IMG/VR virus record: IMGVR_UViG_2778261458_000007
DNA length: 39,379 nucleotides
Reading direction: 5' to 3' (one strand)
Origin: a virus
Lineage: Duplodnaviria; Heunggongvirae; Uroviricota; Caudoviricetes
Below, piece after piece: positions 4,854 to 33,700 of this stretch; positions within the stretch are counted from its first letter, which is position 1, and the number at the start of each line of letters is the position of its first letter. The translations under genes were made by a program, and so were the position numbers. Under the pieces are notes generated by a model. The model did no database searches and had not been told where the DNA came from. It saw only the letters and a list, made by a program, of their open reading frames with translations.

Positions 4854-5006
4854 TCAGCCCTCCCATATCTCGTTATCGTTGGCCACATCGCGAGCTTCTT
4901 TGCTGACGAAAGCCCACTTAATGCCTTCCTGTAAGGTGCGGAACTTCCAGCTCATGAATCCGCATGCAGTAACGCAGTACCAACCGTTGATGATTTTCCA
5001 CTGCAT
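4854..5006 (-). CDS. Small hypothetical protein (50 aa), first gene of leftward early operon
   Basis: Not in ORF track (below 60 aa); ATG at 5006 with GAGGT 9 nt upstream; translation MQWKIINGWYCVTACGF...; directly downstream of leftward promoter. Confidence 0.35.
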   Translation of the reverse strand: MQWKIINGWYCVTACGFMSWKFRTLQEGIKWAFVSKEARDVANDNEIWEG

Positions 5007-5024
5007 AACTTGTTACCTCGGTCT

Positions 5025-5041
5025 GTTACCGTTGAGGTAAT
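5025..5041. promoter_or_regulatory. Operator site 1 (OL-proximal): GTTACCGTTGAGGTAAT
   Basis: 17-bp palindrome NTTACC-N5-GGTAAN overlapping -10 and +1 of leftward early promoter. Confidence 0.6.
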
Positions 5042-5068
5042 AATTATGCGTATATGGTTTGATGTCAA
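5040..5068 (-). promoter_or_regulatory. Leftward early promoter (PL-like)
   Basis: On minus strand -35 TTGACA (5068-5063), 17-bp spacer, -10 AATTAT (5045-5040); flanked by operator sites 1 and 2. Confidence 0.5.
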
Positions 5069-5086
5069 TAGATATGAGTTAAAAAA

Positions 5087-5103
5087 ATTACCCGTTAGGT
5101 AAT
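5087..5103. promoter_or_regulatory. Operator site 2 (OL-distal): ATTACCCGTTAGGTAAT
   Basis: Perfect half-sites ATTACC/GGTAAT, between repressor terminator and leftward promoter -35. Confidence 0.6.
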
Positions 5104-5114
5104 CGAATAGGCAA

Positions 5115-5137
5115 TAAAAAAGCCGCCATAAGGCGGC
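5115..5137 (-). terminator. Intrinsic terminator after repressor gene
   Basis: Hairpin GCCGCC-ATAA-GGCGGC followed on minus strand by a T-run (plus-strand A-run 5115-5121). Confidence 0.6.
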
Positions 5138-5159
5138 TTACTTACTGAAAAATATGGTT

Positions 5160-5744
5160 TTATTGTTTGTTTTTTTCGTTCTGGTTGATGACAAATTCAA
5201 TGTAACTTTCGATCTTTGCTTTCTCGGTTTCGGGTAACAATGCGTAGCGCGAGCGATCATAGTTGATGGTCGCAGGGTCGTGCGGGTGAATCAGTAATTC
5301 ATAGCCGTGACGCCCGAATGCGGATGCAACATTCTCCAGGGTGGAAATGGAAACGCTGACCTCATTGTTTAACAGGCGGCTGATTGTCACCTGGGCTACG
5401 CCGGATGCGCGGTGAAGTTTTCCCTGTGTTGAAAGGTCGCGGCTTTCGCTCATCCAGCGTTCCAGGTTGTGAGCCGCCAGCTGGCCAATGTCGCTTGGGC
5501 CGACAGGCTGAAAACCTTCCTGAGAAAGCGAGCGATCGATATCAAGCCAGTTACGGGGTTTATTGGCGGCAGCTTCAATTTTTCGTGCAACCTGGTCGCC
5601 GATAACCTTCTTGCCAAGAGCCCAGCGGTTTACCAGATTTGCCTGAGTTCCAAGTTTTTCAGCCATCCGCGTCTGAACACCATTGAATTCACGGTCGATC
5701 AAGTCGTTGAGATTTTGCCTGCGGACGTCCTGGATACTTTTCAT
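5160..5744 (-). CDS. CI-like prophage repressor (tandem HTH, no recognisable S24 peptidase domain)
   Basis: 194-aa ORF divergent from cro-like gene across an operator cluster; two HTH-like segments (QTRMAEKLGTQANLVNRW and GVAQVTISRLLNNE); no Ala-Gly/Ser-Lys cleavage motifs seen. Confidence 0.7.
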   Translation of the reverse strand: MKSIQDVRRQNLNDLIDREFNGVQTRMAEKLGTQANLVNRWALGKKVIGDQVARKIEAAANKPRNWLDIDRSLSQEGFQPVGPSDIGQLAAHNLERWMSESRDLSTQGKLHRASGVAQVTISRLLNNEVSVSISTLENVASAFGRHGYELLIHPHDPATINYDRSRYALLPETEKAKIESYIEFVINQNEKNKQ

Positions 5745-5798
5745 TTTCTGGAAAATCGCCTCATATCTGAATCAGAAGATGATTCAATTTAAAGCAAT

Positions 5799-5815
5799 AT
5801 TACCCAACAGGTAAA
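5799..5815. promoter_or_regulatory. Operator site 3 (OR cluster): ATTACCCAACAGGTAAA
   Basis: In divergent repressor/cro intergenic region. Confidence 0.6.
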
Positions 5816-5832
5816 TGCACCTCATGGGTAAC
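5816..5832. promoter_or_regulatory. Operator site 4 (OR cluster, degenerate): TGCACCTCATGGGTAAC
   Basis: Abuts site 3; right half conserved, left half degenerate; spacer TCATG identical to site 8. Confidence 0.4.
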
Positions 5833-5844
5833 TATCCTTGATTT

Positions 5845-5873
5845 TTGTTACCTTATAGGTGAATATTTATTAT
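5845..5873 (+). promoter_or_regulatory. Rightward early promoter (PR-like)
   Basis: -35 TTGTTA (5845-5850), 17-bp spacer containing operator site 5, -10 TATTAT (5868-5873); cro-like ATG at 5899. Confidence 0.5.
5847..5863. promoter_or_regulatory. Operator site 5 (OR cluster): GTTACCTTATAGGTGAA
   Basis: Lies in the spacer between -35 TTGTTA and -10 TATTAT of the rightward cro promoter. Confidence 0.55.
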
Positions 5874-5898
5874 CTGAAATAAATATCAGGCAATAGCT

Positions 5899-6129
5899 AT
5901 GAGCGATAACGGACATTTCGATTTCAAAAAGCACTGGCTTGCACTTACTCCGGATGAGCGTGAAGCCTTCGCACAGGAAGCCGGAACGACGAGTCACTAT
6001 ATCCAGACTCACTTAACAGGTAAGCGCAAAATGCCAGGTAAGGTATTGATGGATGGGCTTTTTAAAGCCTGTAAATCAAGACAATGGCTGCGCTCAAAAG
6101 CAGAACTGGCATACTTCTTCTACTCATGA
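5899..6129 (+). CDS. Cro-like DNA-binding protein
   Basis: 76-aa ORF divergent from repressor; first gene of rightward early operon; followed by intrinsic terminator. Confidence 0.55.
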   Translation: MSDNGHFDFKKHWLALTPDEREAFAQEAGTTSHYIQTHLTGKRKMPGKVLMDGLFKACKSRQWLRSKAELAYFFYS

Positions 6130-6151
6130 TATCCAGCCACAACCCTCTGTA

Positions 6152-6173
6152 GACCGCCATCCGGCGGTCTTTT
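6152..6173 (+). terminator. Intrinsic terminator after cro-like gene
   Basis: Hairpin GACCGCC-ATCC-GGCGGTC followed by TTTT. Confidence 0.65.
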
Positions 6174-6183
6174 CATATCTATT

Positions 6184-6200
6184 CGTACCTCAAAGGTAAT
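6184..6200. promoter_or_regulatory. Operator site 6: CGTACCTCAAAGGTAAT
   Basis: Immediately after cro terminator, upstream of gene at 6280. Confidence 0.5.
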
Positions 6201-6279
6201 AAAAAACCAAATATGGTTGATCTTTTTTTTGTGTCAGCACAAAATAACCGTAATCCCAATACTAATAACAGGGCTTACC

Positions 6280-6480
6280 ATGGAAATCATTACACGTATT
6301 GATGCCGCAAAGCGCGGACTTAAACGCTACTACACCGGAAAACCATGTAAGCACGGACATGACAGTGAACGCTGGGTTTACAACGGACACTGTGTTGAGT
6401 GCACCATGGAGTCAAACCGTCGCATCAGGGCAGAGATTAAGCAGATCATGATTAATTCCTCCCCACAACACTCAAGCTGA
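6280..6480 (+). CDS. Small Cys/His-rich protein (cII-equivalent position)
   Basis: Start at ATG 6280 (MEIITRIDAAKRG); C-x-H-G-H ... C-V-E-C pattern suggests zinc binding; the ORF-track start at 6217 is a TTG. Confidence 0.45.
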   Translation: MEIITRIDAAKRGLKRYYTGKPCKHGHDSERWVYNGHCVECTMESNRRIRAEIKQIMINSSPQHSS

Positions 6481-6495
6481 TAGCGGAGATTAATC

Positions 6496-7311
6496 ATGAG
6501 CAGACATGCAACAGATTGGGCCTGGGAGACAGATCCAGGTAGCTCATCATTAAAGCTCATACTGCTCTCGATGGCTGACAGAGCCGATGAATATAACCTC
6601 TGCTACCCAAGCATAGAACGCCTCGTTAAAGACACTTGCCTGAATAAAAAAACCGTGCAGGCCGGGCTTATATCGCTCATGAAAATGGGGCTTATTTCAG
6701 ATACCGGAGAGAGAAAGGGAGCGACGAAAAGAGTGCGGGTTTTCTCTCTTAATATAACAAAAAACGGGAACATTAAAGGTAACCGGGAAGGGTGTAATGA
6801 ACCCGAAAACGGTAATGTTACCGAAAACGGGAATATACCCAAAAACGGGATGTTGAATGATCCCAAAAACGGGATGTTGAATGATCCCAAAAACGGGATC
6901 CAGAACCAGTCATATAACCAGTCATTTAACCAAGAGAGGGAGAGCAGGACAAAAAACGGGGATTCTGTGCATCATGACCCCGGCGCAAACAACGCCGTGA
7001 TGAATAACTTTGTTCCTCCTGGTGGGCCAGGGCAATTAGGAAAATTTGTCATGCATGAACAATGGCAGCCATCAGATGACTTTCTTCGGAAAAGCTCATT
7101 GCAGGGGATCTACCTGGACAGTCTGCCAACGGCACAGGAACTTGCAGAGTTCAGAATTTACTGGATGGCTGAGGGTAAGGCATACCATCAGGCACAGTGG
7201 GAGCAGAAGCTGGCAAGGCGGCTGCAGATTAGCAGACAGAAGCAATCAACATTACCTGATAACAACGTTCCGCACTGGAACAGCCCTGAAGCATGGGAGG
7301 ATTTCTTGTGA
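6496..7311 (+). CDS. Replication initiation protein (lambda O-like, iterons embedded)
   Basis: 271-aa ORF with RBS GGAG; N-terminal HTH-like domain; internal AAAACGGGA iteron array coding KNG repeats; followed by coupled P-like gene. Confidence 0.7.
   Translation: MSRHATDWAWETDPGSSSLKLILLSMADRADEYNLCYPSIERLVKDTCLNKKTVQAGLISLMKMGLISDTGERKGATKRVRVFSLNITKNGNIKGNREGCNEPENGNVTENGNIPKNGMLNDPKNGMLNDPKNGIQNQSYNQSFNQERESRTKNGDSVHHDPGANNAVMNNFVPPGGPGQLGKFVMHEQWQPSDDFLRKSSLQGIYLDSLPTAQELAEFRIYWMAEGKAYHQAQWEQKLARRLQISRQKQSTLPDNNVPHWNSPEAWEDFL
6759..6961. repeat. Iteron array (AAAACGG[G/T]A, about 7 copies) within O-like gene, putative replication origin
   Basis: Cores at 6761, 6806, 6824, 6842, 6866, 6890, 6953; three copies are exact 24-bp tandem units CCCAAAAACGGGATGTTGAATGAT (6838-6861, 6862-6885, partial 6886-6903). 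Confidence 0.6.
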
Positions 7312-8093
7312 ACAACGTTTTTACCGCGATACAAAACCGTGACGGAGAAGCCCTTTCTCGCATGTCAGGTTATGAGCATCAGTACACCAACAATGACAAC
7401 GTGGTGAACATGTCAGCAGAGAGGCTTGTTGATGCCCTTTTCAAACAGCTGAAACAACTGTTTCCGGCGGCAGTGGTAACCAACCTGAAGACGCCAGAGC
7501 AGGAAGTTGCTGCAAAACAGCAGTGGATTGCTGCGTTTGCCGAAGGGGGGATCCGAACCCGTGAGCAGGTTTCTGCTGGTATGCGCCACGCCCGCGCCAG
7601 TGAATCTCCGTTCTGGCCGTCGCCTGGGCAATTCATCAAGTGGTGTAAAGACAGCAAGATGGTTCTTGGCGTCACCATTGACGATGTGATGGCGGAGTTT
7701 CACCGGTACAGCAAGGAAAAAAGTTTATATCCTGGTGGTCCCGAAAGATTCCCGTGGCGGCATCCGGTTATGTACTGGGTCGTATGCGATACCCGCCGTG
7801 CAATGTATCAGCGCCAGCTTAGCGAGATTGAGGTTGAGAAACACGCGCGCAGGCTGCTCGATGATTGGGCGAAAAAGGTGGCTTCCGGACAGCAGATACC
7901 CGATCCTGTGATCAGCATACAGGCAAAGCCAGAACCCATGAGTACGCCTCCGGACACAGGGAGAGACGTTTACCACCCGCCAGGGCGAAGTTTCGGGTGC
8001 ATGCCTAACGCCGCCACCCTTGGGGGAATAACACCGGCGCAGTGGCTGATGGAGGAATACAGGCGGGGAAAGGCGGCAGGATTTATCAAGTAA
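7308..8093 (+). CDS. Lambda P-like replication protein (helicase loader)
   Basis: Segment QQWIAAFAEGGIRTREQVSAGMRHARASESPFWPSPGQFIKWCK closely parallels lambda P; GTG start at 7308 with GGGAGGA upstream, overlapping O stop. Confidence 0.8.
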   Translation: MNNVFTAIQNRDGEALSRMSGYEHQYTNNDNVVNMSAERLVDALFKQLKQLFPAAVVTNLKTPEQEVAAKQQWIAAFAEGGIRTREQVSAGMRHARASESPFWPSPGQFIKWCKDSKMVLGVTIDDVMAEFHRYSKEKSLYPGGPERFPWRHPVMYWVVCDTRRAMYQRQLSEIEVEKHARRLLDDWAKKVASGQQIPDPVISIQAKPEPMSTPPDTGRDVYHPPGRSFGCMPNAATLGGITPAQWLMEEYRRGKAAGFIK

Positions 8094-8098
8094 TACCA

Positions 8099-8118
8099 GC
8101 GCGATAGCGCATTTTTTT
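8099..8118 (+). terminator. Weak intrinsic terminator after P-like gene
   Basis: Short GC hairpin GCGC-GATA-GCGC followed by seven T. Confidence 0.4.
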
Positions 8119-8129
8119 ACGTCTAAATG

Positions 8130-8146
8130 GTTACCTGTTAGGTAAT
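8130..8146. promoter_or_regulatory. Operator site 7: GTTACCTGTTAGGTAAT
   Basis: After P-gene terminator, upstream of -35 TTGATT. Confidence 0.55.
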
Positions 8147-8191
8147 AAAATATTCTAAAATCTATTGATTTCGTGTCTTATGTGGTTTTTA

Positions 8192-8208
8192 ATTACCTCA
8201 TGGGTAAA
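8192..8208. promoter_or_regulatory. Operator site 8: ATTACCTCATGGGTAAA
   Basis: Overlaps -10 TTTAAT and ends 2 bp before start codon at 8211. Confidence 0.55.
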
Positions 8209-8210
8209 TC

Positions 8211-8555
8211 ATGAGAAAACAGATACAGGCTCTTGGTCGACTCAAAACAGGCCAGATGAACAAAACAGAATCTGCGTATTGCCAGCACCTTGAGCAGCGT
8301 AAACGTGCAGGGGAAATCGCCTGGTATCGATTCGAGGGTATCAAGCTGCGGTTAGCTGACAACACGTTCTATACGCCAGATTTCGCTGTGATGCTCGCCA
8401 CCGGAGAGATGGAACTGCACGAAGTGAAAGGTTTCTGGACCGACGACGCCAGGGTGAAAACCAAAGTCGCCGCAGATCAGTATCCGTTCCGAATCATCGG
8501 GGTAACGGTTAAGCCAAAGAAAGCAGGTGGTGGCTGGAACATCGAAGAGTTCTGA
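8211..8555 (+). CDS. DUF1064-like protein (putative nuclease)
   Basis: 114-aa ORF; motif pattern resembles DUF1064 phage proteins; start sits immediately after operator site 8. Confidence 0.55.
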   Translation: MRKQIQALGRLKTGQMNKTESAYCQHLEQRKRAGEIAWYRFEGIKLRLADNTFYTPDFAVMLATGEMELHEVKGFWTDDARVKTKVAADQYPFRIIGVTVKPKKAGGGWNIEEF

Positions 8556-8616
8556 ATCGACGATCTTTTTAGTTATCAATGTAATCAATAAGTTATGTGG
8601 ATAAGCGAGGGTAAAG

Positions 8617-9066
8617 ATGGAAAGTAATATCAAAGGGTTAGTTTCCGCCGGGCATGAGATGGTTTCGGAACTGAAAGCAGAATGTGGTGCCGTTGATATG
8701 CGCAGTGTGGCAAAGCTGATCAGCGATTTGGCAACGCAACTGGAAGTGCAACTGGTGCGTGCTAATGCGCTGGCGGCGGAGAATGTGGGGCTAAAGGCGA
8801 TATGTGATGACCGTCGCAGGTTCATCATGAATGGGGTGCAGATGGGTTATATCAAGGTGCCAGCAGCGGAAACAGATCCAGACCTTGAGACAATTCGCAT
8901 TGCTATATCACCACAAAAGCCCATTCCAGCCACTGATGCTTTCCTGTCTGAAGTGCGGGCGCAGGGGGTAGAGATGATGCGCGAACATCCATCAATCAAA
9001 CTTTGCTCTTTGACGCACATATGTGACGAGTTAGCCGCTCAGCTTCGCAAAGGAGGCCACCAGTGA
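8617..9066 (+). CDS. Hypothetical protein (149 aa)
   Basis: ORF with RBS GAGGG 5 nt upstream. Confidence 0.45.
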   Translation: MESNIKGLVSAGHEMVSELKAECGAVDMRSVAKLISDLATQLEVQLVRANALAAENVGLKAICDDRRRFIMNGVQMGYIKVPAAETDPDLETIRIAISPQKPIPATDAFLSEVRAQGVEMMREHPSIKLCSLTHICDELAAQLRKGGHQ

Positions 9067-9362
9067 CTGTATGTCTTATTGATAAACGTCGACGTGAGCA
9101 ACAAATACCATCTGTTGAAATGCCGAATCACACATGGTTTTGCGTACTTGATATCGATGGTATGGATGCGTTGGTTGACACTCGTCATTACTGCGATACC
9201 GCAACAGCTACTCCGGCGAAAGCAAAGAAAATGGCTGCTCTGATAGAAAACTGGACTCCACCTGATGGTTGGTGCAATGGGAATGATCGAGATTGGCATG
9301 AAAAAATGAAGGGCTATATCTGCGATTTCTTACGTAAATGCAACGGCTTCAGGGTGATGTGA
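9063..9362 (+). CDS. Hypothetical protein (99 aa)
   Basis: GTG start with AGGAGG 6 nt upstream; overlaps previous stop. Confidence 0.45.
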   Translation: MTVCLIDKRRREQQIPSVEMPNHTWFCVLDIDGMDALVDTRHYCDTATATPAKAKKMAALIENWTPPDGWCNGNDRDWHEKMKGYICDFLRKCNGFRVM

Positions 9363-9363
9363 T

Positions 9364-9933
9364 ATGACCACTATGAACAGAGAAGAACAAAAGCAAGTTC
9401 TCATAGATACAGCTAATCACGTAATCAACCGTGATAATACTTCACCATATAGCGAAAATCTTAAAGAACTGGCACGAATTGCGCTGGCATCGCTGGAAGC
9501 AGAGCCTGTAACCCAAACTTACAACTTGCCAGAATTAATCGAAGGCATGGAAGTTTCTATTGATGTAAGCACTTGTGATGCTGATTTAGGTAATCGCTAT
9601 TTCGGCACCGTCACCGAGGCGTTAGAACTTGATACAGCCAAGAATGGTTACATCCTCCTGGTTCAGGACGCAGAGCCAAACTTCGATGTAAATGGCAACT
9701 CTCCGGTAACTCCGGATGGTTGGATAAGCTGTAGTGAGCGAATGCCGGAAGACACCAAAATGTTACTGGCATTTAGTCAAGGTCGAATAGTGGCAGCATA
9801 TTGGAACTGGGTAATGAATCCAATTGATTACAAAAAATACAGAGCTTTCACATATTTATCAGGAAATATCTTGGATGACGTAACCCACTGGATGCCTCTA
9901 CCTGAACCGCCTCAGGAGGTTAACCGTGGCTAA
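9364..9933 (+). CDS. DUF551-like protein
   Basis: 189-aa ORF; C-terminal WISCSERMPED...HWMPLPEPP resembles DUF551 proteins of lambdoid nin/ea regions. Confidence 0.5.
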   Translation: MTTMNREEQKQVLIDTANHVINRDNTSPYSENLKELARIALASLEAEPVTQTYNLPELIEGMEVSIDVSTCDADLGNRYFGTVTEALELDTAKNGYILLVQDAEPNFDVNGNSPVTPDGWISCSERMPEDTKMLLAFSQGRIVAAYWNWVMNPIDYKKYRAFTYLSGNILDDVTHWMPLPEPPQEVNRG

Positions 9934-10207
9934 CCTGCAACTTGCCGTCAAAGGTGAATACTTCGATGCCATGATTCGAGGAGAGAAAACGGAAGAGTAT
10001 CGACTGTGTAATGACTACTGGAATAAGCGAATTATGTTCCGGGAGTATGACCGCCTGATTATCACAAAGGGATATCCGAAGCGCGACGATTCCAGCCGAA
10101 GAATTGATGTTCCGTATGACGGATATGAAATCAAGACAATCACACATCCCCACTTCGGCGATAAACCGGTTAAGGTGTTCGCGATAAAGGTGAATATTGA
10201 TGTCTAA
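9926..10207 (+). CDS. ASCH/PUA-like small protein
   Basis: 93-aa ORF; GTG start with AGGAGG upstream; pattern resembles ASCH/DUF3850 proteins. Confidence 0.45.
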   Translation: MANLQLAVKGEYFDAMIRGEKTEEYRLCNDYWNKRIMFREYDRLIITKGYPKRDDSSRRIDVPYDGYEIKTITHPHFGDKPVKVFAIKVNIDV

Positions 10208-10538
10208 ATCAGCAGCAGAGCGCAAAGCCGCTCAGAGAGCCAGACAAGCTGAATCCGGTGTACGTAAGCTGGAGATTGTGCTTGATGCTCAGGAAATTGA
10301 AATGCTGGAGCGTAACTGTGCCACGCGTCGCCCCGGGCGTGCGCCTTACGAATTTGGTGAGTATATAGCGTTACTGATCCGCCAGGATGATGCACGCGTG
10401 CGCGGGCGTATAAAATCGATCAGCAGAAAACGTTGCGGTAAGTGCGGCGAGAGAGTTCCTGTGAATTCATGCCCGTGTAATGGTGACTCGCAATGCTGGG
10501 TGACCAAAGGCTGGCATGAAACGAAATTAATAGTGTGA
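10200..10538 (+). CDS. Hypothetical protein (Cys-rich C-terminus)
   Basis: ATG 10200 with AAGGTG upstream; C-terminal CGKCGERVPVNSCPCNGDSQC; stop lies inside palindrome GTGACATGTCAC. Confidence 0.45.
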   Translation: MSKSAAERKAAQRARQAESGVRKLEIVLDAQEIEMLERNCATRRPGRAPYEFGEYIALLIRQDDARVRGRIKSISRKRCGKCGERVPVNSCPCNGDSQCWVTKGWHETKLIV

Positions 10539-10546
10539 CATGTCAC
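10535..10546. repeat. Palindrome GTGACATGTCAC (copy 1)
   Basis: Perfect 12-bp palindrome overlapping stop of gene ending 10538. Confidence 0.6.
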
Positions 10547-10555
10547 GAAGGTGTT

Positions 10556-10768
10556 ATGCCAAAAATACGCTACGACCTTGAAGATATGAGAGATAACTCA
10601 GCAAATTTTCCGAAAGAGGTTAAATTTCTCATGCATAAGTATGGTTGCGCCAGGAGGGATATAGTTATCGACAGTCAGCACCCTTGCGGCGAGGATGTAA
10701 TTTTCATTCGCGGTAAATGGGAAGGGTATCTTGACGAGAGTTTTTACGATGAATTTGATGGACTTTGA
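10556..10768 (+). CDS. Hypothetical protein (70 aa)
   Basis: ATG 10556 with GAAGG upstream; followed by strong intrinsic terminator. Confidence 0.4.
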   Translation: MPKIRYDLEDMRDNSANFPKEVKFLMHKYGCARRDIVIDSQHPCGEDVIFIRGKWEGYLDESFYDEFDGL

Positions 10769-10773
10769 ATACT

Positions 10774-10799
10774 GCCGCCAACTATGGCGGCTTTATTTT
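10774..10799 (+). terminator. Intrinsic terminator separating early genes from terminase operon
   Basis: Hairpin GCCGCC-AACTAT-GGCGGC followed by TTTATTTT. Confidence 0.65.
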
Positions 10800-10809
10800 G
10801 CATGGTACT

Positions 10810-10826
10810 ATTACCACAACGGTAAC
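10810..10826. promoter_or_regulatory. Operator site 9 (terminase promoter): ATTACCACAACGGTAAC
   Basis: Between strong terminator and terS start; left half overlaps extended -10 TGGTACTAT. Confidence 0.55.
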
Positions 10827-10845
10827 TATTACCACGGTGGTTATG

Positions 10846-11439
10846 ATGCCTGCTGAACCTAAAACCTATAAACGCAAATCAACGCAATTTAAGCCGCTCA
10901 CAGCAATGCAGGAGGCTTATTGCCAGTCATACATCAAAACGCCTGAAAACCAGACTCAGGCAGCGATTAACGCAGGATTCTCCCCAAATACAGCGGCAGT
11001 TAAAGCCAGTGTCATGATGCGCGATGAACGCATTCAAAAACGGATTGCCGAGTTGATGGAGGAGCGCAACAAACGAATGCGCGTCAGTGCTGATTACGTT
11101 CTCATGCGCCTGGTGGAGATCGACCAGATGGACGTGATCGATATCCTCAACGACGATGGGAGCCTTAAACCAATCCGTGAGTGGCCGAAAATCTGGCGCA
11201 CTACGCTTAGTGGCTTTGATCTGTCATCGACCATCATGAACATGAACGAGGATTCGATAGAGACAATCCTCAAAAAAATTAAATGGCCTGACAAGGTGAA
11301 GAACCTTGAGCTGATTGGTAAGCATGTTGATGTCAACGCGTTCAAAGAACGTCTGGATGTTAATGTGAATGTGACAATTGCTGATCGCATAGCAGCAGCC
11401 AGGAAGCGACTCAAAGAACGTCAGGATGGTAATCAGTGA
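10846..11439 (+). CDS. Terminase small subunit
   Basis: Conserved region LTAMQEAYCQSYIKTPENQTQAAINAGFSPNTAAV typical of Terminase_2-type small subunits; immediately upstream of terL; start chosen at second ATG for RBS spacing. Confidence 0.7.
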   Translation: MPAEPKTYKRKSTQFKPLTAMQEAYCQSYIKTPENQTQAAINAGFSPNTAAVKASVMMRDERIQKRIAELMEERNKRMRVSADYVLMRLVEIDQMDVIDILNDDGSLKPIREWPKIWRTTLSGFDLSSTIMNMNEDSIETILKKIKWPDKVKNLELIGKHVDVNAFKERLDVNVNVTIADRIAAARKRLKERQDGNQ

Positions 11440-12911
11440 CAGATACAGCGTTATCTCCTGAAGAGCAGTTGATCGAGGATATTGCAGGGTTCACTCACGA
11501 TCCGCTTGGCTATGCCCTCTATGCGTTCCCGTGGGGGGAAGAGGGGACTGAACTGGCACATGCCACCGGCCCACGTCAGTGGCAGGCTGATGCGTTCCGA
11601 GAGATACGTGATCACCTGCAGAATCCAGAGACGCGCTATCAGCCGCTTATGCTGGCACGCGCTTCTGGTCACGGTATTGGTAAATCCGCATTCATCTCAA
11701 TGCTGATCAACTGGGGCATGTCCACTTGCGAGGATTGTAAGGTCGTGGTGACCGCCAACACCGACAACCAGCTACGAACGAAGACCTGGCCGGAAATTAT
11801 CAAGTGGTCGAACCTTGCTATCACGAAAGACTGGTTTACCTGTACCGCTACCGCGATGTACAGCAATGATCCTGGGCACGACAAGCGGTGGCGAGCTGAC
11901 GCAATCCCCTGGTCTGAGCACAACACTGAGGCATTCGCCGGACTACACAACGAGCGCAAACGCATCATCGTGGTATTCGATGAAGCGTCGAACATTGCCG
12001 ATCTGGTGTGGGAGGTAGCAGAGGGTGCGCTGACGGACGAAGACACCGAAATCATCTGGGTGGCGTTCGGGAACCCGACGCGTAACACCGGGCGTTTCCG
12101 TGAATGTTTCCGCAAGTACAAACACCGCTGGAAGTGTGCGCAGATTGACAGCCGGACGGTGGAAGGCACTAACAAACAGCAGTTGCAGAAATGGGTTGAT
12201 GACTACGGGGAAGACAGCGACTTCGTTAAAATCCGTGTGCGCGGCATATTCCCTGATGCATCTGAATTGCAGTTTATCCCTACCGGTCTTACTGATGAGG
12301 CAATGAAACGGGTGGTAACCGCTGCGCAGGTTGCACATGCTCCGGTGATAATCGGCGTTGACCCGGCATACTCAGGCGTTGATGACGCGGTGATATACCT
12401 GCGGCAGGGGCTGCACAGTAAGGTGCTATGGACTGGTAACAAGACCACCGACGATCTGATTATGGCGAAGCGTATCGCTGACTTTGAAGACCAGTACCAG
12501 GCTGACGCGGTGTTCATCGACTTCGGTTACGGAACCGGTCTGAAGTCAATCGGTGACGGATGGGGTCGTACATGGCAACTTGTTCCGTTCGGTGGCGCGT
12601 CTACTGACCCGCAGATGCTCAACAAGCGTGGGGAGATGTTCAATTCATGCAAGACATGGCTGAGGCTGGGCGGCATGCTGGATGACCAGGAAACAGCAGA
12701 CGACCTGTCGGCGGCTGAGTACAAAGTTCGTGTGGACGGTAAAATCGTTATCGAACCGAAGGAAGATATCAAAGAGCGTCTTGGGCGTTCGCCGGGTAAA
12801 GGCGATGCGCTACTGCTGACGTTTGCGTTCCCTGTGTCGAAGCGTCTGCGAATTCCTGGGCAGCAGAACCAGCAAGGCAAGGCCATCACAGATTATGACC
12901 CGTATGCTTAA
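11436..12911 (+). CDS. Terminase large subunit
   Basis: 491-aa ORF; Walker A-like GHGIGKS; acidic nuclease-type C-terminal region; coupled to terS. Confidence 0.85.
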   Translation: MTDTALSPEEQLIEDIAGFTHDPLGYALYAFPWGEEGTELAHATGPRQWQADAFREIRDHLQNPETRYQPLMLARASGHGIGKSAFISMLINWGMSTCEDCKVVVTANTDNQLRTKTWPEIIKWSNLAITKDWFTCTATAMYSNDPGHDKRWRADAIPWSEHNTEAFAGLHNERKRIIVVFDEASNIADLVWEVAEGALTDEDTEIIWVAFGNPTRNTGRFRECFRKYKHRWKCAQIDSRTVEGTNKQQLQKWVDDYGEDSDFVKIRVRGIFPDASELQFIPTGLTDEAMKRVVTAAQVAHAPVIIGVDPAYSGVDDAVIYLRQGLHSKVLWTGNKTTDDLIMAKRIADFEDQYQADAVFIDFGYGTGLKSIGDGWGRTWQLVPFGGASTDPQMLNKRGEMFNSCKTWLRLGGMLDDQETADDLSAAEYKVRVDGKIVIEPKEDIKERLGRSPGKGDALLLTFAFPVSKRLRIPGQQNQQGKAITDYDPYA

Positions 12912-13577: not shown

Positions 13578-13654
13578 TGGCGTGGCATGCAGGATTCGAA
13601 CCTGCGACCAACCGCTTAGAAGGCGGTTGCTCTGTCCAACTGAGCTAATGCCAC
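13578..13654 (-). tRNA. tRNA-Arg (anticodon UCU)
   Basis: 77-nt cloverleaf on minus strand: acceptor GTGGCAT/ATGCCAC, D-arm GCTC...GAGC, anticodon stem ACCGC/GCGGT with loop CTTCTAA, T-arm GCAGG-TTCGAAT-CCTGC, encoded CCA; own terminator downstream. Confidence 0.85.
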
Positions 13655-13976: not shown

Positions 13977-13993
13977 CTTACCTGAAAGGTAAT
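13977..13993. promoter_or_regulatory. Operator site 10 (head operon / tRNA divergent region): CTTACCTGAAAGGTAAT
   Basis: In noncoding region upstream of head genes and of minus-strand tRNA. Confidence 0.55.
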
Positions 13994-19789: not shown

Positions 19790-22260
19790 TGGCTATCAGT
19801 TGGATCCAGCCCAGCTTTGCCGGTGGTGAGATTGGACCGTCGTTGTACGGTCGTATCGACATGGCGAAGTACCAGGTGGCATTGCGCAAGTGCGATAACT
19901 TTATCGTGCGGCAGTATGGCGGCGTTGAGAATCGACCTGGTACGCGTTTTGTCGGTGCCGCCAAATACCCAAATCGGAAATGCCGCCTGATCCCGTTCCA
20001 GTTCTCGACGGTTCAGACCTATGCTCTGGAGTTCGGGCACCAGTACATGCGCGTTATCAAAGATGGTGCGTTGGTGCTGAACAGCAGCAATGTTATTTAT
20101 GAAATTGCCACGCCATATACTGAAGCCGATCTGTTCCGAATTAAATTTACGCAAAGCGCCGACGTGCTTACGCTGGTTCACCCGGCATACCCGCCGAAAG
20201 AGTTGCGCCGCTATGCGCATGACAACTGGCAACTGGTTGATGTGGTAACGAAGAACGGGCCATTTGAAGATATCAATATTGACGAGTCAGTGACGGTTTA
20301 TGCCAGCGCCAGCACCGGGACAATTACGTTAACGGCAAGCGCCTCTATTTTTGGCGCGGAGCAGGTAGGCAAATTGTTCTATCTGGAACAGCCTGCAGTG
20401 GATTCAGTGCCGGTATGGGAAACCAGTAAGAGTACGTCGATTGGCGATATTCGCCGTGCAGACAGTAACTACTATCGCGCCGTTACAGCAGGCAAAACAG
20501 GCACTTTGCGCCCTTCGCATACAGAAGGCACATCATGGGATGGCTGGGGCGGATCCGGTGATGATGATACTGGCATTGAGTGGGAGTATCTGCACAGTGG
20601 TTTTGGCATTGCCCGTATCACTGCTGTAAACGGCACTACTGCAACTGCCGAGGTGATTTCCTATATCCCTTCGCAGGTCGTTGGCGAGGATAATGCCAGC
20701 TATAAATGGGCTAAATATGCCTGGAACAGTGTTAATGGTTATCCTGGCACTGTTGTTTATTATCAACAACGTCTTTACTTCGCCGCATCGACTGCGTTCC
20801 CTCAGACTATCTGGGCCAGCCGTACCGGGGATTATAAGGATTTTGGCAAAAGCAATCCTACGCAGGATGACGACAGAATTATCTACACCTATGCCGGGCG
20901 TCAGGTTAATGAGATCCGCCACCTGATTGATGTCGGTTCGCTGGTGGCACTGACTTCCGGAGGTGAGTACGTCATCACCGGCGACCAGAACAAAGTGTTA
21001 ACCCCATCATCATTTGCATTCAGCTCTCAGGGATCAAATGGCTCAAGCAACGTCCCACCAATTGCTGTGGCGAATATTGCTCTGTTTGTCCAGGAGAAAG
21101 GCAGCGTTGTCCGTGATCTGGCCTACTCATTCGATGTTGACGGCTATCAGGGGAACGACCTGACCATCCTTGCCAATCATCTTTTTCAGAAGCACAGCAT
21201 TGTTGACTGGTGCTTCTCGATAGTCCCTTACTCCAGCGCCTTCTGCATCCGTGATGACGGTAAATTACTGGTGATGACCTATTTGCGTGATCAACAGGTT
21301 TTTGCATGGGCACCACAGTCCAGTACCGGAAAATATGAAAGCACATGCAGTATCAGCGAAGGCAATGAAGATGCGGTGTATTTCGTCGTTAACCGAACCG
21401 TTAACGGGCAAACAGTGAGATACATCGAGAGACTGTCTAGCCGTTTATTTACCAGCGATGAAGATGCTTTCTTTGTTGATTCTGGCCTTAGCTATGATGG
21501 AAGAAATACGTCTGACAGAACGATGACCATCACTGGTGGTTCTGGCGAATGGGATTATCGCGCGGAATATACAATCAGTGTTTCTGGTGGTGCGTACTTC
21601 ACCAGTAGTGATGTCGGCGCGCAACTACAGTTCCCTTATGTCGGAACTGATCCTGATACTGGCGATGAAGTGTCAAAAGAATTACGTTGCGACATTATTT
21701 CTGTAACCAGCAATACCGCTGTAGTGGTTCGTGCTAACAGGAACGTCCCGCCATCCCTCAGGAATGTGGCCACCACGAACTGGCAGATGGCGCGCCGGAC
21801 ATTTGGAGGCCTGTCTCATCTTGAAGGCCAGACCGTAAACATTCTCTCTGATGCGAACGTGGAGCCACAGAAAGTGGTTTCCGGAGGTGCCGTCACGCTG
21901 GAATCTCCGGGGGCTGTAGTGCACATCGGCCTGCCAATAACTGCTGAATTCGAAACACTGGATATCAACATTAACGGACAGGAAACGCTGCTGGACAAAA
22001 AACAGGTGATCCCGTCCGTTACTCTGGTTGTGAATGCCAGCCGCGGCATCTGGGCGACTACGCCCGGCGGTAAATGGTACGAATATCCACAGCGTGAATT
22101 CGAGTTCTACGATGATCCTGTTGATGACGCTACCGGAAAAGTAGAAGTGAAACTGGACAGTAACTGGGGCAAAAACGGACGTGTAAGAATCCGTCAGCTT
22201 GACCCGTTGCCGCTGTCTGTTCTTGCCGTTATTCCTCGCCTTACTGTTGGGGGATTCTGA
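19789..22260 (+). CDS. Tail tubular protein B-like (nozzle)
   Basis: 823-aa ORF following gp11-like gene in T7-like order. Confidence 0.5.
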   Translation: MAISWIQPSFAGGEIGPSLYGRIDMAKYQVALRKCDNFIVRQYGGVENRPGTRFVGAAKYPNRKCRLIPFQFSTVQTYALEFGHQYMRVIKDGALVLNSSNVIYEIATPYTEADLFRIKFTQSADVLTLVHPAYPPKELRRYAHDNWQLVDVVTKNGPFEDINIDESVTVYASASTGTITLTASASIFGAEQVGKLFYLEQPAVDSVPVWETSKSTSIGDIRRADSNYYRAVTAGKTGTLRPSHTEGTSWDGWGGSGDDDTGIEWEYLHSGFGIARITAVNGTTATAEVISYIPSQVVGEDNASYKWAKYAWNSVNGYPGTVVYYQQRLYFAASTAFPQTIWASRTGDYKDFGKSNPTQDDDRIIYTYAGRQVNEIRHLIDVGSLVALTSGGEYVITGDQNKVLTPSSFAFSSQGSNGSSNVPPIAVANIALFVQEKGSVVRDLAYSFDVDGYQGNDLTILANHLFQKHSIVDWCFSIVPYSSAFCIRDDGKLLVMTYLRDQQVFAWAPQSSTGKYESTCSISEGNEDAVYFVVNRTVNGQTVRYIERLSSRLFTSDEDAFFVDSGLSYDGRNTSDRTMTITGGSGEWDYRAEYTISVSGGAYFTSSDVGAQLQFPYVGTDPDTGDEVSKELRCDIISVTSNTAVVVRANRNVPPSLRNVATTNWQMARRTFGGLSHLEGQTVNILSDANVEPQKVVSGGAVTLESPGAVVHIGLPITAEFETLDININGQETLLDKKQVIPSVTLVVNASRGIWATTPGGKWYEYPQREFEFYDDPVDDATGKVEVKLDSNWGKNGRVRIRQLDPLPLSVLAVIPRLTVGGF

Positions 22261-32235: not shown

Positions 32236-32252
32236 TTTACCTTTAAGGTAAT
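32236..32252. promoter_or_regulatory. Operator site 11 (accessory operon promoter): TTTACCTTTAAGGTAAT
   Basis: Overlaps -10 and +1 of leftward promoter TTGCAG-17-TACTAT. Confidence 0.55.
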
Positions 32253-32279
32253 AGTACGCTATTCACCCCCGGTCTGCAA
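32251..32279 (-). promoter_or_regulatory. Promoter of accessory membrane-protein operon
   Basis: On minus strand -35 TTGCAG (32279-32274), 17-bp spacer, -10 TACTAT (32256-32251) overlapping operator site 11. Confidence 0.45.
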
Positions 32280-32323: not shown

Positions 32324-33034
32324 TCAGAAGAACCCTGCCTTGTCGTTGATGTACTCCGCGTGTGTCTGGATATCACGCAGGCATTTGCTCACACCGACGA
32401 TGTAGCAGAACATGGTGGTCAGCTCCGCCGCTGCGCCCGATACGTCGTGCCCGTCGTCCTGTAACTGGTTCAGCAGATTCATCAGCAGTGAGTTCTCTGT
32501 CAGGCCGAGAACACCAGACGGCGAATGAATCAGGCTGCGGTAGCCGGGCTTCAGTGGGGCGCTGTAGGTTTTGTTCTCTACCTTCATTGCCTGCATCACT
32601 GCTGACGCCGTGGCGTTGGCTACCTGGTCGGCAACCATCTTTATGCGTTCTTCCTGCGGGAGCGAGTTTTTAATGTAGCGTCCGGTGCGGCGGATCTGAG
32701 GAAGAACCTCACCTGTAACCCATTTACGAAAGCGGTAGGGTATAGTGCCTGGTGTCACTGCGTCGCGGCAGCGTAGGATCAGTGTGTAGAGGCCTGACTC
32801 GGAGATGATGTTGATCTCTTTTACTCGGCTGTCAAAAATTGCACGATGTTCATGCCCTATGTTGAACATAGACCTTTCATCATCATCCAGTTTTTCAAGT
32901 GCTTGGGTGACGTTTTGGATACGCAGCGCACTACAAACGTCTTGGGCTACAAACCATGGTTGGCCATCGATAATGATGGAACGGATAGGGTTAACAGATT
33001 CAAATTTGAAGATGGCAGTTTGAGCATTAGCCAT
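32324..33034 (-). CDS. Bro-N domain antirepressor-like protein
   Basis: N-terminal region FVAQDVCSALRIQN...ISESGLYTLILRCRD...FRKWVTGEVLPQIRRTG matches Bro-N-type antirepressors; start ATG 33034 with GGAG upstream. Confidence 0.65.
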   Translation of the reverse strand: MANAQTAIFKFESVNPIRSIIIDGQPWFVAQDVCSALRIQNVTQALEKLDDDERSMFNIGHEHRAIFDSRVKEINIISESGLYTLILRCRDAVTPGTIPYRFRKWVTGEVLPQIRRTGRYIKNSLPQEERIKMVADQVANATASAVMQAMKVENKTYSAPLKPGYRSLIHSPSGVLGLTENSLLMNLLNQLQDDGHDVSGAAAELTTMFCYIVGVSKCLRDIQTHAEYINDKAGFF

Positions 33035-33190
33035 GGTGGTTATCTCCACTTAGTGATTTTAATCACCACCGCAACGCCAATTACTGGTGGTGAACTGGAC
33101 AAGGTTGGCGTACCGGCCTAAGTGGTACCGGCGTCCTTTCGGACCCCTGCCCAGCCCACCATAATTCGGATATAGCTGTGCTTAACGCAT

Positions 33191-33213
33191 AAAAAAACCA
33201 CGTCTGGCGTGGT
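33191..33213 (-). terminator. Intrinsic terminator inside leader upstream of Bro-N gene
   Basis: Hairpin ACCACG-CCAGA-CGTGGT followed on minus strand by T-run. Confidence 0.55.
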
Positions 33214-33302
33214 ATGCGCCACTTAGTAACCCGGGACGCCAATCCCGGCACTGGATTTTGCCAGTGCCTGATTACTATGGCACAAGAGGAGTGCGATGTA
33301 AA

Positions 33303-33319
33303 TTTACCTCAAAGGTAAA
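33303..33319. promoter_or_regulatory. Operator site 12 (antirepressor leader promoter): TTTACCTCAAAGGTAAA
   Basis: Overlaps -10 of leftward promoter TTGCAA-17-TATATT. Confidence 0.55.
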
Positions 33320-33346
33320 TATAAGCACTCCACTTGGTAATTGCAA
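33318..33346 (-). promoter_or_regulatory. Promoter of structured leader/sRNA upstream of Bro-N gene
   Basis: On minus strand -35 TTGCAA (33346-33341), 17-bp spacer, -10 TATATT (33323-33318) overlapping operator site 12. Confidence 0.45.
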
Positions 33347-33349
33347 ACC

Positions 33350-33607
33350 TTATCTGGTTTGTTTTCGTAATTGTTCGGCACAATAGTCGAGATGTGTTTG
33401 CAGCTCCTGCATAGACATCTGTGAGCTGGTGACGTAGTTAATCAGTGCAGTCAGTTCGGCAAGTGGGCCATCGACATTAAATCCATCCTTATCGAGATCC
33501 CGGAGTAATTTCATCAAGTGCGATCCCTCCACCAGTGATCTGACGCCTCCCGGCGTGTGAATCCTTTCGGTAAATCCGTCTTCCAGTGGATAGTGATACT
33601 GCTGCAT
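33350..33607 (-). CDS. Small antirepressor-like protein (homolog of Bro-N protein C-terminal domain), LexA-box associated
   Basis: About 45 percent identity by eye to residues about 150-215 of the Bro-N protein (shared LAELT, QTH..Y); start at second ATG 33607 with GGAG RBS; LexA box 23 bp upstream. Confidence 0.5.
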   Translation of the reverse strand: MQQYHYPLEDGFTERIHTPGGVRSLVEGSHLMKLLRDLDKDGFNVDGPLAELTALINYVTSSQMSMQELQTHLDYCAEQLRKQTR

Positions 33608-33629
33608 CTTAATCTTCTCCATGCAATAA

Positions 33630-33645: not shown

Positions 33646-33683
33646 TAGCAAATAATTTGTTTGCTATCCAGCACGTTTTGCAA

Positions 33684-33700
33684 ATTACCTGAAAGGTAAT
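33684..33700. promoter_or_regulatory. Operator site 13: ATTACCTGAAAGGTAAT (perfect palindrome)
   Basis: In divergent region between LexA-boxed small gene and tailspike gene; preceded by TTGCAA. Confidence 0.6.

What the first reader, a model, noticed from the sequence alone, without database searches (positions are those of the whole stretch)
6152..10826. Same-strand early operons are punctuated by an intrinsic terminator followed by an operator-bearing promoter
Three junctions between consecutive plus-strand gene groups share one architecture: a rho-independent terminator, then an operator, then the next gene. They are 6152-6173 then site 6 (6184-6200); 8099-8118 then sites 7 and 8 (8130-8208) around TTGATT-17-TTTAAT; and 10774-10799 then site 9 (10810-10826) at terS. 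This implies each block is a separately repressed transcription unit, not one long antiterminated early transcript. At terS and at the accessory operon the -10 hexamer and operator overlap in the identical 10-mer TACTATTACC.
Basis: partly seen in the sequence, partly recalled or inferred. Interest (0 to 1): 0.6.

Follow-up and report, generated by a model that had tools for sequence, protein, structure and literature searches.

The report
Terminator-then-repressor-gated promoter cassettes in a prophage
In this phiV10/epsilon15-type temperate E. coli phage, three gene blocks on the same strand are separated by a terminator hairpin followed by a promoter that carries binding sites for the phage repressor; this is real and conserved across the phage genus, but largely already annotated in public records, so it is ordinary.

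Summary
The window is a Uetakevirus, about 98% identical to phages PAS61 and phiV10. The palindrome TTACC-N5-GGTAA occurs 13 times against about 0.6 expected. At three plus-strand junctions a GC hairpin with a U-tract lies 14-20 nt upstream of such a site.

Each junction also carries a promoter:
- J1: TTGATC-17-CAAAAT.
- J2: TTGATT-17-TTTAAT, flanked by two operators 62 bp apart.
- J3 (at terS): an extended -10, TGgTACTAT, that runs into the operator.

These cassettes are conserved in seven sequenced relatives and about 100 IMG/VR prophage loci.

The repressor is a full-length homologue of the structurally solved SPC32H Rep, and its antirepressor and LexA box are also present.

There are caveats. 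T2 has only a 4-bp stem. The J1 operator is imperfect in almost every lineage. The terS terminator is missing in two clades. No transcript data exist, so "separately repressed units, no antitermination" is plausible but unproven.

The epsilon15 RefSeq record already marks repressor sites at the J2 and terS positions, and the phiV10 record marks all three terminators. Novelty is therefore low.

One side observation is unexplained: operator central spacers are 5-10 times more diverse than synonymous sites.

The parts
5160..5744 (-). rep: the prophage repressor, with two HTH domains
   Evidence: Pfam HTH_3. Full-length match to SPC32H Rep, PDB 5D50, E 4e-42. NLVNRW is invariant in 7 homologues.
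6151..6174 (+). T1: intrinsic terminator after the cro-like gene (5899-6129)
   Evidence: Annotated as a terminator in phiV10. A hairpin is present in 60 of 60 unique relatives; the U-tract only in some clades.
6184..6200 (.). O6: imperfect operator (CGTACCTCAAAGGTAAT)
   Evidence: The right half GGTAA is invariant in 74 of 74 sequences; the left half is imperfect in 73 of 74; it lies 17 nt before the -35 in 69 of 74.
6217..6245 (+). P(J1): TTGATC-17-CAAAAT, promoter of the replication block (6280-8093)
   Evidence: PWM score 10.5, in the top 0.01% of the window. Conserved in relatives.
6245..6261 (.). Degenerate proximal half-operator (ATAACC...) abutting the J1 -10
   Evidence: Read directly from the sequence. 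It is a near-complete operator, with one mismatch to the 15-mer core, at the same place in BUCT554, and a TTACC half-site in the epsilon15 clade.
8099..8118 (+). T2: minimal hairpin GCGC-GAUA-GCGC followed by U7, after the lambda-P-like gene
   Evidence: Annotated in phiV10. Hairpin plus at least 5 T in 50 of 51 unique relatives, with a varying loop.
8130..8146 (.). O7: distal operator of J2
   Evidence: Homologous to the epsilon15 'repressor' protein_bind feature at 35906-35922.
8165..8193 (+). P(J2): TTGATT-17-TTTAAT, promoter of the DUF1064/accessory block (8211-10768)
   Evidence: PWM score 10.2. TTGA is conserved in at least 90% of cluster representatives.
8192..8208 (.). O8: proximal operator covering the -10 end, the predicted start and the ribosome-binding site; 62 bp from O7
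   Evidence: The 62-bp spacing holds in all 7 genomes and in 70 oriented loci.
10774..10799 (+). T3: intrinsic terminator before terS
   Evidence: Annotated in epsilon15 (39646-39671) and phiV10. Present in 16 of 25 unique J3 sequences.
10803..10811 (+). P(J3): extended -10 TGgTACTAT with no usable -35
   Evidence: TG is invariant in 25 of 25 unique relatives.
10810..10826 (.). O9: operator overlapping the -10 end and the predicted start of the terS promoter
   Evidence: Homologous to the epsilon15 repressor site at 12-27.
10828..10844 (.). O10: tandem operator (1 mismatch) covering the terS ribosome-binding site and start codon (terS 10843-11439)
5120..5139 (-). rep terminator: the same architecture on the minus strand (rep, terminator, O2, PL, O1)
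   Evidence: dG -21.1. Annotated in phiV10.
5025..5103 (-). PL cassette: O2 (5087-5103), TTGACA-17-AATTAT (5068-5040), O1 (5025-5041). The operators are 62 bp apart.
5786..5873 (.). Divergent rep and cro promoters with operators 5799-5815 and 5847-5863
13977..13993 (.). Operator in the gap before the portal/structural block
   Evidence: The epsilon15 homologue at 2931-2947 is annotated as a repressor site.
32236..32279 (-). TTGCAG-17-TACTAT with its operator, before the minus-strand accessory genes
33303..33346 (-). TTGCAA-17-TATATT with its operator, upstream of isrK, the C4 RNA and a Bro-N antirepressor gene
33684..33700 (.). Operator between the ant gene and the tailspike gene
   Evidence: The epsilon15 homologue at 19895-19911 is annotated.

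Best explanation
The three junctions are conserved regulatory cassettes of epsilon15/phiV10-type phages. In each, a hairpin with a U-tract ends (T1, T3) or attenuates (T2) the upstream transcript. A sigma-70 promoter then restarts transcription for the next block: replication genes at J1, the DUF1064/accessory genes at J2, and terS-terL at J3.

The prophage repressor Rep is a homologue of SPC32H Rep, which assembles as a tetramer. I infer that it binds the 15-17 bp palindrome ATTACC-N5-GGTAAT at or beside each promoter. At J2 and PL, a proximal operator begins on the last two bases of the -10 and covers the predicted start site, and a second operator lies 62 bp (about six helical turns) upstream. 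One tetramer could therefore bridge both and loop out the promoter. At terS, two operators 18 bp apart cover the extended -10, the predicted start and the ribosome-binding site. J1 has only a weak distal site plus a half-site.

Rep would thus silence every transcription unit directly: 13 sites at 9 intergenic regions. Induction would go through the LexA-controlled antirepressor Ant.

What is shown: the sequence elements, their non-random placement, their conservation, and the homology of Rep and Ant.

What is inferred: Rep binding at these sites, promoter activity, termination, and looping.
For: - The motif is enriched 20-fold and none of the 13 sites lies inside a credible gene.
- It brackets rep and overlaps the divergent promoters, as in a classical immunity region.
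- The same motif occurs at the same syntenic positions in 7 genomes from 4 host genera, 13-19 sites each against 1-2 expected.
- The epsilon15 RefSeq record labels the homologous sites 'repressor'.
- Rep matches PDB 5D50 over its full length. Its putative recognition segment NLVNRW is invariant although overall identity falls to 42%.
- An Ant 87% identical to SPC32H Ant sits next to a near-consensus LexA box.
- In phage ZX5, whose repressor the paper reports to be identical to phiV10's, repressor overexpression cut endolysin and holin transcripts by more than 99.9% (PMC9782041).
- Promoter elements are conserved at fixed spacing.
- The -10 hexamer shares one register with the operator at PL, J2, J3, 32237 and 33304.
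- Terminator hairpins are conserved. At J3, one lineage has a non-homologous hairpin plus T-tract at the same place (L101).
- The phiV10 authors annotated terminators at all three junctions.
Against: - I had no transcript, footprint or binding data.
- T2 has a 4-bp stem and is not significant in a wider folding context.
- The T1 U-tract is interrupted here and absent in the epsilon15 and BUCT711 clades.
- T3 is absent in 9 of 25 unique J3 sequences, so the terminators are not obligatory parts of the cassettes.
- The J2 -10 in this clade (TTTAAT) lacks the usual A at position 2.
- The J3 promoter has no -35 and may need help to fire.
- O6 and O7 lie upstream of their promoters, not over them.
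- T1 shows only one covarying base pair, so structure-level selection is weakly supported.
Confidence: 0.7

Rival explanations
1. Read-through model. The early-right genes are mainly expressed as one transcript from the cro promoter. The hairpins are leaky attenuators or are overridden by an unrecognised antiterminator. The internal promoter-like sequences are minor or inactive.
For: T2 is minimal. The T1 U-tract is weak or absent in several clades. T3 is missing in two clades. The small zinc-finger 'transcriptional regulator' (10209-10538, phrog_536) near the end of the J2 block, two genes upstream of T3, has no known function and could act on late transcription.
Against: The -35 and -10 elements are conserved at fixed distances from the operators across divergent lineages. 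A proximal operator that covers the start site only makes sense if a promoter is there. No N or Q homologue is annotated or detected. Rfam found no antitermination RNA.
Confidence: 0.2
2. Roadblock or loop-anchor model. The operators placed just after the terminators (O6, O7, O2) act mainly as elongation roadblocks or as anchors for long-range Rep loops, for example between the cro-promoter operators and O6, 337 bp away. They would not be promoter operators in their own right. This is compatible with the main model for the proximal sites.
For: O6, O7 and O2 lie 14-20 nt after a terminator and about 60 nt upstream of the predicted start. SPC32H Rep is described as tetrameric (PMC9638917). The 62-bp phasing is strictly conserved. 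O6 is kept as a half-strength site at a fixed position.
Against: The sites are palindromic, unlike the orientation-dependent stoperators of mycobacteriophage L5 (my own knowledge). With the upstream promoters repressed, there is little to block in a lysogen.
Confidence: 0.25
3. Module-linker model. The cassettes are conserved mainly because they serve as short homologous joints where gene modules are exchanged. Their regulatory role would be secondary.
For: The match to epsilon15 covers only the J2 cassette, while the flanking genes differ: DnaT-like and RuvC-type in epsilon15, lambda-P-like and DUF1064 here. Within the phiV10 clade, sequence diversity jumps just after O6, at about 6205. Downstream genes differ right after the J1 -10. 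The phage encodes RecE/RecT-type recombination proteins.
Against: Conservation is concentrated in operator half-sites, hexamers and the hairpin/T-tract, with exact spacing. That pattern points to regulatory constraint rather than generic homology.
Confidence: 0.15
4. The palindrome is bound by a factor other than Rep, for example the cro-like product of 5899-6129.
For: No binding data were available to me. Lytic repressors commonly share operators with the prophage repressor. The cro-like protein hits a 'transcriptional repressor' PHROG.
Against: The epsilon15 record assigns the sites to the repressor. The Rep recognition segment is invariant, in step with invariant half-sites. Shared use by both proteins would not change the architecture.
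Confidence: 0.1

Closest known systems
Repressor-binding sites annotated in Salmonella phage epsilon15 (RefSeq NC_004775; genome paper Kropinski et al. 2007, which I could not read)
   Same: The same palindrome ATTACC-N5-GGTAAT at the same syntenic positions: before terS (12-27, preceded by terminator 39646-39671), before the gene after the replication block (35906-35922), beside rep, before the portal block and before the tailspike.
   Different: The record marks 7 sites. It omits the proximal J2 site, the tandem terS site, the sites between rep and cro, and anything at J1. It annotates no promoters. The epsilon15 J1 hairpin lacks a U-tract.
Terminators annotated in phage phiV10 (DQ126339 / NC_007804)
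   Same: Putative rho-independent terminators are annotated at all three homologous junctions and after rep. The sequence is 93-98% identical to the window.
   Different: No operators or promoters are annotated there. terS is given an upstream start that runs across the operators.
Rep-Ant-LexA switch of Salmonella phage SPC32H (PDB 5D50, 5D4Z; Kim and Ryu 2013, Kim et al. 2016, neither readable here)
   Same: The window's Rep is a full-length homologue (E 4e-42) and its Ant is 87% identical, with a LexA box. The SPC32H genome carries the same operator pairs.
   Different: The window additionally has a second, Bro-N-type antirepressor behind isrK and C4 RNAs.
Phage P1 C1 repressor with operators dispersed over the genome, including the immI c4-ant operon (my own knowledge)
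   Same: One repressor directly gates many separate transcription units, including an antirepressor operon that carries a C4 antisense RNA.
   Different: P1 operators are asymmetric 17-mers. C1 is unrelated to Rep. There is no evidence of homology beyond the C4 RNA module.
Mycobacteriophage L5/L1 repressor with multiple asymmetric operators or 'stoperators' (PMC1934351 abstract; details from my own knowledge)
   Same: Many repressor sites are spread through the genome, beyond the immunity region.
   Different: Those sites are asymmetric, orientation-dependent, and lie inside transcription units to stop elongation. The sites here are palindromic and sit at promoters and junctions.
Lambda early-right operon: PR-cro-tR1 with N antitermination (my own knowledge)
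   Same: The gene order is repressor, divergent promoters, a cro-like gene, a terminator, then replication genes that include a lambda-P homologue.
   Different: Here a promoter follows the terminator, and no N, nut or Q was found.

Membership tests
epsilon15/SPC32H-type Rep regulon (genus Uetakevirus) | Repressor homologous to SPC32H Rep / epsilon15 gp38 | tested here: met
   phmmer against PDB 5D50, E 4e-42, residues 1-190 of 194. Aligned with 6 genus members.
epsilon15/SPC32H-type Rep regulon (genus Uetakevirus) | ATTACC-N5-GGTAAT palindromes at the syntenic intergenic positions | tested here: met
   13 sites. Positions match the epsilon15 annotation and 6 other genomes.
epsilon15/SPC32H-type Rep regulon (genus Uetakevirus) | LexA-controlled small antirepressor Ant | tested here: met
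   87% identity to SPC32H Ant. LexA box at 33628-33647 with 1 mismatch.
epsilon15/SPC32H-type Rep regulon (genus Uetakevirus) | Rep physically binds these sites and represses the adjacent promoters | not testable with these tools
   Only indirect support: repressor overexpression silences lysis genes in phage ZX5, whose repressor the paper reports to be identical to phiV10's (PMC9782041).
Intrinsic (rho-independent) terminator | Stable GC-rich hairpin of at least 5 bp | tested here: inconclusive
   T1 has 8 bp and T3 has 7 bp, so both meet it. T2 has only 4 bp and does not meet the scan's criterion.
Intrinsic (rho-independent) terminator | U-rich tract directly after the hairpin | tested here: met
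   T1 UUUUCAUAUCU, T2 A+U7, T3 UUUAUUUUGC. The T1 tract is absent in the epsilon15 and BUCT711 clades.
Intrinsic (rho-independent) terminator | Transcript 3' ends form at the site | not testable with these tools
   Needs Term-seq or in vitro transcription.
Sigma-70 promoter | -35 and -10 hexamers 16-18 bp apart, or an extended -10 (TGn) | tested here: met
   J1 scores 10.5 and J2 scores 10.2, both in the top 0.01% of PWM scores. J3 is TGgTACTAT with TG in 25 of 25 relatives. These are consensus matches only.
Sigma-70 promoter | Mapped transcription start | not testable with these tools
   No transcript data were available.
Lambda-type antitermination cascade (N/nut, Q/qut) | An N- or Q-family antiterminator gene, or a known antitermination RNA | tested here: not met
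   None in the phiV10, epsilon15 or PAS61 annotations. None in Pfam, PHROG or NCBIfam hits of the ORFs scanned. Rfam gathering and E-value scans found none. An unrecognised factor cannot be excluded.
L5-type stoperators | Asymmetric, orientation-dependent sites inside transcription units | tested here: not met
   The sites are palindromic and none lies inside a credible gene.

The most novel reading that the evidence does not exclude
The phage may run its whole temporal programme without an antiterminator. Each unit would be insulated by a terminator and opened by its own Rep-gated promoter. The order of derepression, as Ant titrates Rep, would be set by operator number and quality: a single deliberately imperfect O6 at the replication unit, 62-bp looped pairs at PL and J2, and a tandem pair at terS. 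The fast-evolving central spacers and terminator-operator linkers would be the tuning knobs. At O7 their diversity is 0.46, against about 0.05 at synonymous sites among phages with near-identical Rep, and their divergence is uncorrelated with flank divergence.
Probability: 0.2. Interest if true: 0.55.

Novelty: already known. Interest (0 to 1): 0.25.

Why it matters
It mainly improves annotation. It gives a coherent regulatory map for phiV10/epsilon15-type prophages, which are used as O157 and Salmonella reporter and typing phages:
- nine operator-bearing regions;
- promoters for the replication, accessory and packaging blocks;
- a likely corrected terS start.

It also predicts where transcripts start and stop. 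If the units are confirmed to be independent, the cassettes would be compact Rep-switchable insulated promoters, useful for engineering these phages. The group would then be an enterobacterial example of a distributed-operator, antiterminator-free lysis programme.

The hypervariable operator spacers, if real, would be a rare case of rapid evolution at non-contacted operator bases.

Tried and rejected
- **Primary literature.** I tried to read Kropinski 2007 and Kim and Ryu 2013/2016. None is held. Full-text searches found no accessible paper describing these operators. The novelty judgement therefore rests on GenBank/RefSeq feature tables, not on the papers.
- **Antitermination RNAs.** Rfam found none at the junctions.
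- **Candidate late regulator.** I looked for an identity for the zinc-finger protein 10209-10538. Pfam, NCBIfam and PDB gave no hit; only a PHROG labelled 'transcriptional regulator' matched. I did not pursue it with structure prediction. The region upstream of the terS -10 shares no conserved sequence between clades with and without T3, which argues against a fixed activator site.
- **T1 covariation.** Only one pair shows double changes, so this is weak evidence either way.
- **The 'identical 10-mer' TACTATTACC.** Rejected as independent evidence, because six of its bases are operator consensus. The real signal is the shared register between the -10 and the operator.
- **ATRTGGTT motif.** It has 6 hits, all on the plus strand and all in operator-bearing gaps. 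It partly overlaps the sequence immediately upstream of the -35 at J1. No consistent register with promoters was found, so it is left unexplained.
- **Complementarity between the linker and the N5 spacer at O7.** Seen in a few alleles only, and not consistent.
- **Defence-gene identity of the accessory operon.** No PADLOC hit.

Full report
**Identity of the window**

Region 5000-11500 is 98.2% identical to Escherichia phage vB_EcoP_PAS61 and 97.6% identical to phiV10, both genus Uetakevirus, the epsilon15-like temperate podophages. The gene content fits this assignment.
- 5160-5744 (-) encodes a repressor with two HTH domains.
- 5899-6129 encodes a cro-like gene.
- 6496-7311 encodes a DnaT/HTH_36 initiator.
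- 7293-8093 encodes a lambda-P-like loader.
- 8211-8555 encodes a DUF1064 nuclease, followed by accessory genes.
- terS and terL start at 10843.

**Checking the observation**

The palindrome TTACC-N5-GGTAA, allowing one mismatch, occurs 13 times against 0.59 expected. As the 17-mer ATTACC-N5-GGTAAT with up to two mismatches, it occurs 13 times against 1.6 expected. None of the 13 sites lies inside a credible gene.

- T1 (6151-6170) and T3 (10774-10791) are solid, with 8 and 7 bp stems, dG -15 and -14 kcal/mol, and z about -4 to -5.
- T2 (8099-8110) is only GCGC-GAUA-GCGC followed by U7. It fails a 5-bp criterion and is significant only in a narrow folding window.

Each hairpin ends 14-20 nt before an operator. 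TTGATT-17-TTTAAT (8165-8193) and the two exact copies of TACTATTACC are confirmed. The 10-mer identity is not significant in itself.

- J1 has its own promoter, TTGATC-17-CAAAAT (6217-6245, PWM 10.5, top 0.01% of the window). It starts 17 nt after site 6. A degenerate half-operator abuts its -10.
- The terS promoter is an extended -10, TGgTACTAT (10803-10811), with no -35. A second operator (10828-10844) covers the terS ribosome-binding site and start codon.
- The same layout occurs on the minus strand: rep, terminator 5139-5120 (dG -21), O2, TTGACA-17-AATTAT, O1. A weaker version follows the Bro-N ant gene (hairpin 32315-32300, then TTGCAG-17-TACTAT with its operator).
- The operator pairs at PL and J2 are exactly 62 bp apart.
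- At PL, J2, J3, 32237 and 33304, the last two bases of the -10 hexamer are the first two bases of the 17-mer operator.

**Comparative evidence**

I compared seven complete genomes, counting the window itself: epsilon15, SPC32H, PAT1, Tyrion, BUCT554 and BUCT711, from Escherichia, Salmonella, Enterobacter and Klebsiella hosts. Each carries 13-19 copies of the same motif, against 1-2 expected, at the same syntenic places. Their Rep proteins are only 42-78% identical to the window's, but the segment NLVNRW in the N-terminal HTH is invariant. That fits the invariant half-sites.

Of the 128 loci then held, 98 encode a Rep homologue at 40-100% identity. A scan of one genome per species across GTDB found 19 stretches. 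Eleven are in Enterobacterales; the rest are probably chance matches.

Results by junction:
- **J2.** 50 of 51 unique upstream sequences keep a short GC hairpin plus at least 5 T, and the loop varies. The -35 TTGA is kept in at least 90% of 15 cluster representatives. The flanking genes differ between clades: the match to epsilon15 covers only the cassette.
- **J3.** The TG of the extended -10 is present in 25 of 25 unique sequences, and the base after it varies. The terminator is present in 16 of 25, including one non-homologous hairpin plus T-tract. It is absent where an extra gene abuts the promoter.
- **J1.** A hairpin is always present, but the U-tract is missing in the epsilon15 and BUCT711 clades. 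The operator's right half is invariant (74 of 74) and its left half is imperfect in 73 of 74. It lies 17 nt before TTGATC in 69 of 74. It looks like a site that is kept weak.

**Who binds the motif**

The window's Rep matches SPC32H Rep (PDB 5D50) over its full length, E 4e-42. An Ant 87% identical to SPC32H Ant lies next to a near-consensus LexA box at 33628-33647. SPC32H Rep is described as binding DNA as a tetramer that Ant disassembles (PMC9638917). In phage ZX5, whose repressor the paper reports to be identical to phiV10's, repressor overexpression abolished free phage and cut lysis-gene transcripts by more than 99.9% (PMC9782041). The epsilon15 RefSeq record labels the homologous sites 'repressor'. 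Binding at these particular sites remains an inference.

**Mechanism proposed**

Rep directly gates each transcription unit. At PL and J2, one proximal operator would occlude the -10 and start site, and a distal operator six helical turns upstream could be bridged by the same tetramer. At terS, a tandem pair would cover the promoter, start site and ribosome-binding site. J1 has only a weak distal site plus a half-site.

The hairpins insulate each promoter from upstream transcription, strongly at T1 and T3 in this phage and probably only partly at T2. I found no N- or Q-like function. Restart promoters are therefore the simplest way for the blocks to be expressed. Read-through and an unrecognised antiterminator are not excluded.

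**Comparison with what is known**

The phiV10 GenBank record already annotates terminators at all three junctions and after rep. The epsilon15 RefSeq record already annotates repressor-binding sites before terS (with the preceding terminator), at J2, beside rep, before the portal block and before the tailspike.

I could not find the following in the records or in the accessible literature:
- the promoters;
- the proximal J2 site;
- the tandem terS site;
- the J1 cassette;
- the 62-bp pairing;
- the common register between the -10 and the operator.

These are refinements of a known system, not a new kind. In function the system resembles the dispersed-operator regulon of P1 C1, down to a C4-RNA/antirepressor operon under repressor control. 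It also resembles multi-operator actinophage repressors. It is not a member of those families.

**Verdict**

Interest is low.

One unexplained side result may deserve follow-up. It comes from 22 unique phiV10-clade loci whose Rep is at least 97% identical to the window's.
- Diversity is 0.46 in the O7 spacer, 0.29 in the O8 spacer, 0.26 in the O2 spacer and 0.14-0.22 in the terminator-operator linkers.
- It is 0.044-0.054 at third codon positions of flanking genes and 0.00 in T2.
- Divergence in this core is uncorrelated with flank divergence, r = -0.14.
- The half-sites were fixed by the search pattern; the spacers and linkers were not.

Noticed in passing
window 8119-8164, 8198-8202, 5093-5119: Among 22 phiV10-clade loci whose Rep is at least 97% identical to the window's, the 5-nt operator spacers and the terminator-operator linkers are 3-10 times more diverse than third codon positions. 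Diversity is 0.46 in the O7 spacer against about 0.05 at third positions, and the adjacent T2 hairpin is invariant. Divergence in this core does not track flank divergence. The effect is not evident in the Klebsiella BUCT711-like clade..
   Followed up: partly
window 33083-33346 (-) and 32324-33049 (-): Rfam finds isrK (33191-33267) and a C4 antisense RNA (33083-33166). They lie directly downstream of a strong promoter whose -10 abuts operator 33304, and they are followed by a Bro-N antirepressor gene. This is a P1 immI-like c4-ant module under Rep control. It is a second antirepressor system alongside the SPC32H-type Ant..
   Followed up: partly
window 33350-33647: A small Ant gene (33350-33622, minus strand) is 87% identical to SPC32H Ant. 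A near-consensus LexA box (AACTGTATATTTATACAGTA, 33628-33647) lies just upstream..
   Followed up: yes
window 6759-6898: There are six iteron-like repeats (CNAAAACGGKA, including 2.6 perfect 24-bp units) inside the DnaT/HTH_36 initiator gene. This is probably the replication origin, as in the lambda O gene..
   Followed up: partly
window 10765-10845: The records for PAS61 and phiV10 start terS at an upstream codon, giving 224 aa. That start makes the gene run across the operators (in PAS61 also across T3). The ATG at 10843 gives 198 aa, like the 198-aa terS annotated in epsilon15, so it is the likelier start..
   Followed up: partly
window 5052, 5152, 6211, 8180, 14037, 33732: ATRTGGTT occurs six times, always on the plus strand and always in operator-bearing intergenic regions; 2.8 hits are expected window-wide. 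TGTGGTT followed by TAAATT recurs before the J2 operator and before the portal block, and is conserved in epsilon15. Its function is unknown..
   Followed up: partly
window 5059-5088 (+): A promoter-like TTGATG-18-AAAAAT ends on operator O2 in the usual register. It points rightward into the rep terminator, antisense to rep and convergent with PL. It may be a by-product of the symmetric cassette..
   Followed up: no
window ~6205 and 8099-8213: The J1 and J2 cassettes coincide with mosaic boundaries. Within-clade diversity jumps just after O6, and epsilon15 shares only the J2 cassette while its flanking genes differ. The phage encodes RecE/RecT-type proteins..
   Followed up: partly
window 13581-13654 (-): A tRNA gene lies in the gap between terL and the portal block, on the minus strand..
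   Followed up: no
window 36078-36229: The same-strand junction between the tailspike and the holin/lysis genes has no operator, even allowing up to 3 mismatches in the 17-mer. Not every junction follows the pattern..
   Followed up: no
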